Origin: an uncultured Candidatus Saccharibacteria bacterium
Lineage (GTDB): Bacteria > Patescibacteriota > Minisyncoccia > Phycocordibacterales > DSPV01
NCBI GenBank assembly: GCA_964603405.1
Contig: CAZRUK010000004.1
Span: forward strand, 1-27,197
DNA length: 27,197 nt
Direction of reading: 5' to 3'
Shown here: positions 271 through 392 of the stretch, one piece after another
Layout: every line of letters begins with the position of its first letter
How positions within the stretch are numbered: the stretch's first letter is position 1
The notes under the pieces: model-generated
The model's database searches: none
Told to the model about the DNA's origin: nothing
The model's input: only the letters and a program-made list of their open reading frames with translations
Program-made: the position numbers and the translations under genes

Positions 271-294
271 ATAACGCCCCCATGGTTTAATGGA
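271..294 (+). repeat. Duplicated 5' end of tRNA-Arg(GCG): 5 nt of leader plus tRNA nt 1-19
   Basis: ataacgcccccatggtttaatgga matches 388-411 (ataacgcccccatagtttaatgga) at 23/24 nt. Confidence 0.9.
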
Positions 295-305
295 CCCCAA
301 AGCAG

Positions 306-348
306 TCCCTCGACGAGCTCGGGATGCTACGGGGCGAGAAGTGCCAAA
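306..348 (+). repeat. 43-bp direct repeat, copy 1 (REP-like bulged hairpin)
   Basis: tccctcgacgagctcgggatgctacggggcgagaagtgccaaa is identical to 518-560. Confidence 0.95.
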
Positions 349-392
349 GCGGGTTTCTTGTGGTAATTTTAAATTAAGAAACTAGTTATAAC

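What the first reader, a model, noticed from the sequence alone, without database searches (positions are those of the whole stretch)
271..387. Hairpin cassette inserted after a duplicated tRNA-Arg(GCG) 5' half
Seen: a 23/24-nt copy of the tRNA leader plus nt 1-19 stops in the D-loop (…GGA). It is followed by a nested hairpin, cccc..agca-tccc(tc)ga…tcggga-tgct..gggg, and the intact tRNA follows 117 bp later. Both copies have a TGgTA(G/A)TTT -10-like box upstream (252-260 and 361-369). Established: integrative elements usually duplicate tRNA 3' ends, so a 5'-end duplication is atypical. Inference: a tiny non-coding element that targets the D-loop region, or an independently transcribed tRNA-fragment-headed sRNA.
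Basis: partly seen in the sequence, partly recalled or inferred. Interest (0 to 1): 0.62.

Follow-up and report, generated by a model that had tools for sequence, protein, structure and literature searches.

The report
Gene-end-replacing mobile hairpin element
The hairpin cassette after the half tRNA is one copy of a small, protein-less mobile DNA element, found in many ultra-small-genome bacteria, that sits inside the ends of essential genes and carries a replacement copy of the gene end, so the gene still works.

Summary
Window 271-294 repeats 388-411 (23/24), stops after the D-loop GGA, is followed by a hairpin cassette, and the intact tRNA-Arg(GCG) follows. It is not a local oddity. The cassette core (CCCC, variable hairpin, GGGG, then CGAGAAGTG) recurs at 513-560, at two other places in this genome and in 17 of 101 related small genomes, with 27 copies in one of them. 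In 41 of 58 copies tested, the core follows directly (A|CCCC) a 10-70-nt copy of the end of the neighbouring gene. The intact gene end follows 0-58 nt after the core. Targets are five tRNA-Arg D-loops and the ends of BipA, LepA, YchF, TsaD, MnmA, UvrB, EF-Ts, rplB and rpsL. The two gene-end copies differ almost only at synonymous sites (83 against 13). So both evolved as working genes, and one was imported with the element. Close relatives have precise empty sites. In one genome the core, the tail and 15 nt of a gene start are shared between two unrelated genes. Best reading: a REP/IS200-like single-strand hairpin element, moved in trans, whose mobile unit includes a replacement gene end. The enzyme and the targeting remain inferred. 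This scan has noted similar gene-end-duplicating hairpin elements on other Patescibacteria DNA. I found no published description.

The parts
236..270 (+). Native spacer after the upstream gene's stop codon (233-235), with the -10-like string TGGTAGTTT at 252-260. Probably the original tRNA promoter.
   Evidence: The empty-site relative G005 has the same upstream gene end (...EYFGF*), a 29-nt spacer with TGTGGTATCGT, then the tRNA.
271..294 (+). R1: the displaced copy of 5 nt of leader plus nt 1-19 of tRNA-Arg(GCG). It ends ...GGA directly before the element.
   Evidence: (23/24 identity to 388-411).
295..348 (+). Element core: imperfect hairpin CCCC...GGGG (295-334) plus the conserved single-stranded motif CGAGAAGTGCCAAA (335-348).
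   Evidence: There are 52 distinct cores. The inner part has a median identity of 47%, yet all fold.
349..387 (+). Element tail: A+T-rich and variable between copies, with TGGTAATTT at 361-369 and a small hairpin at about 353-384. Presumed replacement promoter for the tRNA.
   Evidence: Promoter function is inferred, not shown (one search finds no full consensus).
388..411 (+). R2: the gene-end copy continuous with the intact gene. Presumed cargo of the element.
393..467 (+). Intact tRNA-Arg(GCG), CCA encoded.
   Evidence: (66.3 bits).
513..560 (+). Second copy of the core. 518-560 is identical to 306-348. Its 5' arm is altered and it has no clear flanking repeat. It lies upstream of tRNA-Arg(CCG).
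   Evidence: In G012 the tRNA-Arg(CCG) of the similar tRNA locus has a core after a D-loop fragment.
607..678 (+). Intact tRNA-Arg(CCG).
679..780 (+). Member of a second dispersed hairpin family, inserted at the 3' end of tRNA-Arg(CCG).
   Evidence: matches in 44 of 101 related genomes, many copies each.
781..803 (+). Copy (22/23) of the 3' end of tRNA-Arg(CCG), 656-678. Part of it (781-795) also belongs to the conserved end of the second family.
816..841 (.). Perfect 13+13 palindrome. Terminator-like on both strands.

Best explanation
Window 295-387 is one copy of a non-autonomous, protein-less mobile element about 90 nt long. It has a conserved hairpin core that starts CCCC, a conserved CGAGAAGTG motif, and an A+T-rich tail that probably carries a promoter. 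Copies lie just inside the ends of conserved genes. What moves is the core, the tail and the short piece of gene end beyond the tail, up to the old insertion point. When this unit enters an element-free copy of the same gene at the corresponding point (after an A, usually C/G-A), the resident gene end is cut off and left as a relic next to the core (R1, 271-294). The imported gene end (R2, 388-411) joins the rest of the gene and keeps it intact, now driven from the tail. Shown: the family and its hairpin; the layout relic-core-tail-intact gene; the coding-like divergence between the two copies; empty sites in relatives; and a core+tail+gene-start unit shared by two unrelated genes. Inferred: movement as folded single-stranded DNA by a RAYT/IS200-like HUH tyrosine enzyme acting in trans; the promoter role of the tail; and how the right insertion point is found.
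For: Family: the 15-mer ACGGGGCGAGAAGTG (up to 1 mismatch) gives about 70 hits in 101 relatives against about 8 for the reversed control. I judge 17 genomes to hold real copies; G073 has 27. Own genome: four exact copies. Layout: in 41 of 58 copies a repeat of 10-70 nt ends within 2 nt of CCCC and recurs 0-58 nt after the core. The base before CCCC is A in 37 of 41. Polarity: where a long open frame or tRNA settles it, the intact gene lies on the tail side in all but one doubtful case, both for 5' ends (about 21 protein genes, 5 tRNAs) and for 3' ends of opposite-strand genes (7-9). Coding-like divergence: 83 synonymous against 13 non-synonymous codon differences between R1 and R2. 22% synonymous is expected, and 0 of 5000 simulations reach the observed count. 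One case includes a Ser TCA/AGT switch in rplB although its core is identical to another copy in the same genome. Relics do decay: there is a frameshift in the UvrB relic. Empty sites: G005 for this very locus, G101 for rplB, and G013/G005/G008 for TsaD, while G012/G010 and G014 are filled at two different points. Cargo: in G073 the core, the tail and the 15 nt TATGTTAAACAAACA are shared by a PBP2 gene and an unrelated 45-codon frame. Similarity stops exactly at the insertion point, and the 15-mer occurs only three times in that genome. A core-only copy sits inside a relic without any duplication (L016). Stacked relics with three different synonymous versions occur in L029 and in the G012 tRNA locus. 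Enzyme candidate: a RAYT-like Y1 gene is found in 16 of 17 element-bearing genomes against 48 of 84 others. Reverse transcriptase was not found in the 27-copy genome, and TnpB reached its cut-off in none of five genomes (two weak matches in G053).
Against: No transposition intermediate, circle junction or enzyme activity has been seen. The Y1 gene was not found in the window's own genome (64% complete). It scores below the RAYT family cut-off (43 against 80 bits). In the one locus inspected it is not flanked by the element. It is also common in genomes without the element. An A (C/G-A) preference cannot by itself explain landing at the same codon of the same gene in distant genomes, and no part of the element covaries with the flank. 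Which copy is native was resolved only weakly: G012 TsaD favours R1 as native on two informative sites, and rplB and PBP2 are undecided. At least eight pairs are identical, which also fits a plain duplication on insertion. The right end of the unit has no recognisable signal. The window's own hairpin is weak.
Confidence: 0.6

Rival explanations
1. A guide-plus-scaffold nucleic acid. The gene-end copy next to the hairpin (R1) serves as a guide, either as RNA or as single-stranded DNA, read on one strand as 5' guide then scaffold or on the other as scaffold then 3' guide. It directs a trans-encoded enzyme to element-free copies of the same gene. R2 is a recoded rescue copy. This would be a natural counterpart of engineered home-and-rescue gene drives.
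For: A target-matching 10-70 nt lies directly against a conserved hairpin with a conserved single-stranded motif. The same codon is hit in the same gene in distant genomes with different core subfamilies, for example UvrB GGNGA| in G053 and G084, and YchF in three genomes. That calls for programmable targeting. R2 differs from R1 mostly at synonymous sites. Arm mismatches suggest that one particular strand folds.
Against: No TnpB-type nuclease above the family cut-off in the five genomes checked; Cas9/IscB-type genes were not searched. At least eight R1/R2 pairs are identical, so R2 would be a target in its own genome. The scaffold is only 40-60 nt. There are no RNA data. The PBP2 case shows insertion into a site that shares only 9 of 14 nt with the carried copy.
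Confidence: 0.12
2. An ordinary miniature transposon that makes a long, variable target-site duplication by staggered cuts at gene ends. The differences between R1 and R2 arose afterwards.
For: Direct repeats flank a dispersed element. Several pairs are perfect: 35/35 in LepA, 25/25, and 19-21 nt at tRNAs. Copies in one genome share a subfamily core.
Against: After a duplication the relic should decay at random, yet 86% of differing codons are synonymous where 22% is expected. This holds even where the core is identical to another copy, so the insertion is recent. Repeat length ranges from 10 to 70 nt and from 0 to about 50% divergence. A core-only insertion shows no duplication (L016). The core+tail+15 nt unit is shared between unrelated genes.
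Confidence: 0.15
3. A local tandem duplication of the tRNA-plus-cassette unit, followed by a microhomology deletion (about 412-506) in the first copy. On this reading no mobile element is involved.
For: Two cassette copies lie 212 nt apart and two tRNA 5' copies lie 117 nt apart. There is short similarity (TGGA / TGGT) at the would-be deletion ends. A run X2 contig joins 305 to 518, which shows that the two copies can recombine or confuse an assembler.
Against: The same layout recurs at about 40 unrelated loci in 17 genomes. The tails after the two cores are unrelated.
Confidence: 0.03
4. A conserved cis-regulatory or processing RNA placed in front of translation-related genes and tRNAs. The gene-start copy would act as a decoy or an antisense partner.
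For: The hairpin is kept by compensatory change. It is placed at the starts of highly expressed genes. The conserved motif is single-stranded.
Against: No Rfam match. Presence or absence varies among species of one genus, and insertion points differ within the same gene. The element also occurs at 3' ends of opposite-strand genes, as inverted pairs and as tandem stacks. Relics are frameshifted or truncated.
Confidence: 0.08

Closest known systems
REP / REPIN elements and their RAYT (IS200-like HUH Y1) transposases (PMC3116915, PMC3337134, PMC3733652, PMC2817692)
   Same: Short imperfect palindromes in many copies with no coding capacity. Subfamilies keep the stem by compensatory changes. GTAG/GTAC lies at the stem base in about half of the cores. 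Inverted doublets exist (own genome C3:20146-20280). A single-copy RAYT-like gene is present in 16 of 17 bearing genomes.
   Different: REPs are described as extragenic or simply embedded in genes. PMC3733652 does not contain the word 'duplication'. Here copies sit inside gene ends between two versions of that end. GTAG is base-paired rather than a free tag, and it is absent from the window copy. There is an extra conserved motif, CGAGAAGTG, and an A+T-rich tail. The Y1 gene scores below the RAYT cut-off, and the one inspected is not flanked by the element.
Integrative elements that insert into a gene end and carry a replacement end, e.g. phage 21/e14 in icd, and islands in tRNA 3' ends (PMC3603311 for icd; the rest from my own knowledge)
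   Same: The gene stays intact because the element brings a second copy of the gene end. The displaced and replacement copies differ as diverged alleles do.
   Different: Those elements are kilobases long, encode their own integrase and have one attachment site each. This one is about 100 nt, has no gene and is found in at least 15 different genes, at 5' ends as well as 3' ends.
IS200/IS605-derived miniature elements (PATEs), which transpose as single-stranded DNA (PMC6006769)
   Same: Hairpin-defined end. Insertion after a preferred short sequence. No duplication in the core-only case. Possible strand asymmetry of folding.
   Different: Only one conserved hairpin end is seen. The flank preference is only 1-2 nt. 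The unit appears to extend into host sequence.
MITEs that carry outward promoters, e.g. Correia elements of Neisseria (my own knowledge)
   Same: Small non-coding insertions next to gene starts that can supply a promoter.
   Different: No terminal inverted repeats and no fixed short duplication. The flanking repeats are diverged gene ends.

Membership tests
REP/REPIN-RAYT | Short imperfect palindrome present in many dispersed copies | tested here: met
   52 distinct cores, all hairpins, up to 27 per genome.
REP/REPIN-RAYT | Conserved GTAG tag at one end, outside the stem | tested here: not met
   AGTAG/AGTAC/GGTAG/GGTAC follow CCCC in 26 of 52 cores, but they pair with CTAC/GTAC. The window copy has AAAGC instead.
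REP/REPIN-RAYT | Cognate RAYT gene in the genome, typically flanked by the repeats | tested here: inconclusive
   a Y1 gene in 16 of 17 bearing genomes, scoring 43 bits against a cut-off of 80. None was found in the window's 64%-complete genome. The one locus read is not flanked by the element.
REP/REPIN-RAYT | Extragenic location without target duplication | tested here: not met
   copies lie inside gene ends between two gene-end copies.
MITE | Terminal inverted repeats and a fixed-length target-site duplication | tested here: not met
   one hairpin end and a variable tail. Flanking repeats are 10-70 nt and differ at synonymous sites.
Integrative element with replacement gene end | Gene end duplicated, with the element-side copy restoring the gene | tested here: met
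Integrative element with replacement gene end | Own integrase and a single specific attachment site | tested here: not met
   No open frame in 295-387. At least 15 target genes.
IS200/IS605-type single-strand elements | Cleavage and insertion next to a defined tetranucleotide read by a guide beside the hairpin | tested here: inconclusive
   A at -1 in 37 of 41 and C/G at -2 in 32 of 41; no covariation between flank and element.
Any Rfam RNA family | Covariance-model match | tested here: not met
   only the tRNAs match.
Guide RNA of TnpB/Cas12-type nucleases | Associated RuvC nuclease gene | tested here: not met
   PF07282 reaches its cut-off in none of five genomes. Other nuclease families were not searched.

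The most novel reading that the evidence does not exclude
The gene-end copy beside the hairpin is a working guide, as RNA or single-stranded DNA, that steers insertion into element-free alleles of the same essential gene, while the second copy is a recoded rescue. That would make this a natural, protein-less, programmable home-and-rescue drive spreading through conserved genes of ultra-small bacteria.
Probability: 0.12. Interest if true: 0.95.

Novelty: new variant of a known kind. Interest (0 to 1): 0.72.

Why it matters
The result shows how a selfish element about 100 nt long can colonise extremely compact genomes. It settles inside essential, conserved genes (tRNAs, translation GTPases, ribosomal proteins) and brings a spare gene end and probably a promoter, so the host survives. 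This has several consequences.

- Annotators will meet gene-start and gene-end fragments, chimeric N-termini and split operons in these genomes.
- The relics record past invasions and gene flow between lineages.
- If targeting proves to be homology- or guide-based, it would be a new and very small site-directed insertion system.

Tried and rejected
- Tandem duplication plus deletion. Rejected because the same layout recurs at about 40 loci.
- Plain target-site duplication. Disfavoured by the synonymous bias and by the shared core+tail+gene-start unit.
- SINE-like retroposition. No reverse transcriptase was found in the 27-copy genome.
- The repeat starts at the transcription start of leaderless mRNAs. 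Upstream -10 boxes are inconsistent, and the same hugging of the gene terminus is seen at stop codons of opposite-strand genes.
- The relic is translated and selected in place. A relic is frameshifted, and the 3'-end relics have no start codon yet show the same bias.
- Antisense pairing keeps R1 similar to R2. Many of the differences are transversions.
- Covariation between the last bases of the flank and variable element positions. None seen.
- Deciding which copy is native. G012 TsaD weakly favours R1. rplB (G101) and PBP2 (G101) were uninformative.
- Read mapping. Only short contigs of low depth were available. They confirm linkage of R1-core-tail-R2 in run X1 and show a 305-to-518 join in run X2 that may be a deletion variant or an assembly path.
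- RNAalifold on the MAFFT alignment found only the CCCC/GGGG pairs because the 5' arms are out of register. I therefore measured folding per sequence.
- No covariance model was built.

Full report
**1. The observation**

Window 271-294 repeats 388-411 with 23 of 24 identical. The repeat holds five leader bases and nt 1-19 of tRNA-Arg(GCG), which ARAGORN and Rfam place at 393-467. The copy ends at the D-loop GGA.

A nested hairpin follows, running from CCCC (295-298) to GGGG (331-334). The two -10-like strings are at 252-260 and 361-369, although a simple consensus scan calls no full promoter there. A contig from public run X1 covers 262-434 without a difference, so the two copies are physically linked.

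Taken alone, the window's hairpin is not unusually stable (z -0.55 as DNA).

**2.

- The cassette core is repeated at 513-560, with 43 nt identical, between the two tRNA-Arg genes.
- tRNA-Arg(CCG) (607-678) has its 3' end copied at 781-803, around a 102-nt insert.
- The 15-mer ACGGGGCGAGAAGTG occurs four times in this 439-kb, 64%-complete genome.
- One of those copies, on contig C12, follows a 22/23 copy of the start of the BipA GTPase gene, and the real start follows 45 nt after the 15-mer. That is the same architecture as at the tRNA.

**3. The family**

In 101 related genomes (0.5-1.1 Mb) the 15-mer with up to one mismatch gives about 70 hits. The reversed control gives about 8. After reading the contexts I count 17 genomes with real copies. 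One of them, G073, has 27.

The core is CCCC, often followed by a bulged A and GTAG or GTAC, then a variable stem-loop and GGGG. After that comes CG(A/G/C)GAAGTG and usually GTA or CCA.

There are 52 distinct cores. Their inner parts have a median identity of 47%, and 75% fold better than shuffles by z below -2 (mean z -3.3). The stem is therefore kept by compensatory change. Mismatches between the arms are A.C on the shown strand 32 times and G.T 14 times. This hints, weakly and without independence of copies, that the complementary strand is the one that folds. No Rfam family matches.

**4. The layout**

A local alignment of the 70 nt before CCCC with the 220 nt after the core found a repeat ending within 2 nt of CCCC in 41 of 58 copies. 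The repeat is 10-70 nt long and its second copy starts 0-58 nt after the core. Most of the rest have a repeat too diverged for that test, for example UvrB in G084 and TsaD in G014 and G083, or are tail-to-tail inverted pairs. The base before CCCC is A in 37 of 41 and the one before that is C or G in 32 of 41.

The targets are the D-loops of five tRNA-Arg genes in four genomes, and the starts of genes for BipA, LepA, YchF, TsaD, MnmA, UvrB, EF-Ts, L2, S12 and others. They also include the 3' ends of 7-9 genes that lie on the opposite strand. Where a long open frame or a tRNA settles it, the intact gene lies on the tail side and the short fragment on the core side, with one doubtful exception (L009). 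For 3' ends this polarity cannot be put down to the need for a promoter, so it reflects the mechanism.

**5. The two copies are not a fresh duplication**

Across 32 coding cases, 83 of the differing codons are synonymous and 13 are not. Random substitution predicts 22% synonymous, and none of 5000 simulations reaches the observed count. The bias also holds for the 3'-end cases.

The relics keep their own start codons and plausible N-termini. MnmA reads MKKKEKVFVGISGGVD against ...VFCAISGGVDS, and UvrB reads FKIKSDWPPVGD against FKIKAPFPPNGD.

In G073 the L2 relic differs from the working start by 27%, including a serine TCA/AGT switch. Yet its core is identical over 61 nt to another copy in that genome. 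The divergence between the two copies therefore predates the insertion. Both are gene ends that evolved under selection, and one was imported.

Selection on the relic in place is unlikely. One relic is frameshifted (UvrB, G053), one has lost its start (TsaD, G010), and the 3'-end relics have no way to be translated.

**6. Mobility**

- G005 has the same upstream gene end as the window, a 29-nt spacer and an uninterrupted tRNA-Arg(GCG). In the window, R1 stands at that native position, 40 nt after the stop codon.
- G101 has an uninterrupted rplW-rplB spacer where its congener G073 has the element.
- Within one genus, TsaD is empty in three species, filled after GACGA in two (one of them decayed) and filled after GAAA in another.
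- Stacks occur. L029 has two elements and three different synonymous versions of one gene end. The G012 tRNA locus holds three tRNA 5' fragments and two cores before the intact tRNA.

**7. What moves**

In G073 the core, the tail with its CTTTATAAC repeats and the next 15 nt (TATGTTAAACAAACA) are shared by two loci. One lies in front of a PBP2 gene and the other in front of an unrelated 45-codon frame. The similarity stops exactly at the insertion point, and the 15-mer occurs only at these places in that genome.

At the PBP2 gene the relic next to the core is a different 14-nt start. This fits a unit made of core, tail and gene end that was pasted after a CA. It does not fit a unit made of gene end plus core.

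A core-only copy sits inside a relic in G057 with no duplication at all (L016). So the apparent duplication is mostly cargo, not a product of staggered cutting.

In G012, the TsaD relic is closer than the working start to the uninterrupted gene of the nearest relative (two informative sites). This agrees, weakly, with the relic being native.

**8. The likely engine**

- TnpB reaches its cut-off in none of five genomes (two weak matches in G053).
- Reverse transcriptase was not found in the 27-copy genome.
- A 230-260-residue IS200-like Y1 protein is found in 16 of 17 bearing genomes against 48 of 84 others. Its best named relative is the REP-associated tyrosine transposase, at 43 bits against a cut-off of 80. 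Fisher p = 0.0045, and relatedness of the genomes is not corrected.
- The Y1 gene was not found in the window's incomplete genome, and in the one locus read it is not flanked by the element.

REPs are hairpins moved or processed as single strands by such enzymes, and they form inverted doublets (PMC3116915, PMC3733652). This family also forms inverted pairs. The link to the enzyme remains an inference.

**9. What is unexplained**

An A or C/G-A preference cannot account for hits at the same codon of the same gene in distant genomes that carry different core subfamilies. Examples are UvrB GGNGA| and YchF AATGTNGG|. I found no covariation between the flank and the element. Targeting by the carried gene end itself, through homology or a guide, is possible. 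That is the rival and the novel reading.

The right-hand boundary of the unit has no visible signal. The promoter role of the tail is inferred from its position and from TTGCAA and TATAAT-like strings.

**10. Comparison and novelty**

The element works like a REP or IS200-type hairpin element combined with the gene-end replacement known from prophages in icd (PMC3603311) and from islands in tRNA genes. It fails defining features of each.

- REP: the GTAG is paired rather than a free tag, and the element is not extragenic.
- MITE: no terminal inverted repeats and no fixed duplication.
- Integrative elements: no integrase, and many targets rather than one.

Four literature searches found no description. 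Earlier notes of this scan describe gene-end-duplicating hairpin elements in other Patescibacteria genomes, and one reads this same stretch as a REP-like repeat. I used them as leads and tested the synonymous bias and the replacement-end idea here myself.

**11. Verdict**

I rate it as a new variant of a known kind (non-autonomous hairpin mobile elements) with an unusual, well-documented insertion logic and an open targeting mechanism.

Noticed in passing
window 679-803: A second dispersed hairpin family sits at the 3' end of tRNA-Arg(CCG) and is followed by a 22/23 copy of the tRNA's 3' end. Pieces of it match 44 of 101 related genomes, often several times each. It is the mirror image of the finding.
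   Followed up: partly
window 6636-7460 (-): A 275-residue open frame with a LAGLIDADG-like domain (Pfam E 2e-7), about 0.9 kb from tRNA-Lys (8348-8423). Possibly a free-standing homing endonuclease.
   Followed up: no
window 22572-23909 (-): The dnaA gene, so the replication origin is probably nearby. The window also holds ruvA, a Mur ligase, fpg, polA, a PilB-like ATPase and a class A PBP.
   Followed up: no
own genome G000:C3:20146-20280 (L004 about 1470-1600): Two cores lie tail to tail in inverted orientation and form a long hairpin, with flanks that are also inverted repeats. The same arrangement is seen in G073 (L039, L047) and G014 (L033, L082, L083). REPIN-like doublet.
   Followed up: partly
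own genome G000:C2:23105-23375: A tRNA-Thr(GGT)-like gene appears split by about 225 nt just after the anticodon loop. The 5' part is followed by CCCCATGG..., and the 3' part lies upstream of tRNA-Thr(CGT). Possibly a group I intron or another insertion. ARAGORN does not call it.
   Followed up: no
own genome G000:C6:2900-2935; C7:5330-5700; C7:6940-7295; C27:4980-5360: Other tRNA genes have partial copies nearby. A 35-nt 5' copy of tRNA-Pro(GGG) lies before a terminator-like hairpin. 3' end copies lie about 150-170 nt after three tRNA-Leu genes, around G+C-rich hairpin elements.
   Followed up: partly
window 305/518 (run X2): A public-run contig joins 305 to 518 and skips 212 nt, including the intact tRNA-Arg(GCG). 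This is either a deletion variant made by recombination between the two core copies or an assembly path through the 43-nt repeat.
   Followed up: no
L011 1459-1768 (G012): A similar tRNA-Arg locus (not shown to be syntenic) holds a stack: tRNA 5' fragment, core, the same fragment extended and truncated, a second different fragment, a second core, then the intact tRNA-Arg(CCG).
   Followed up: partly
L033, L082, L083 (G014): The cores of the inverted pairs are preceded by CCCGTTAGAAG, the terminal string of another small element family noted earlier in this scan (e1-1003466). The families may be nested or related.
   Followed up: no
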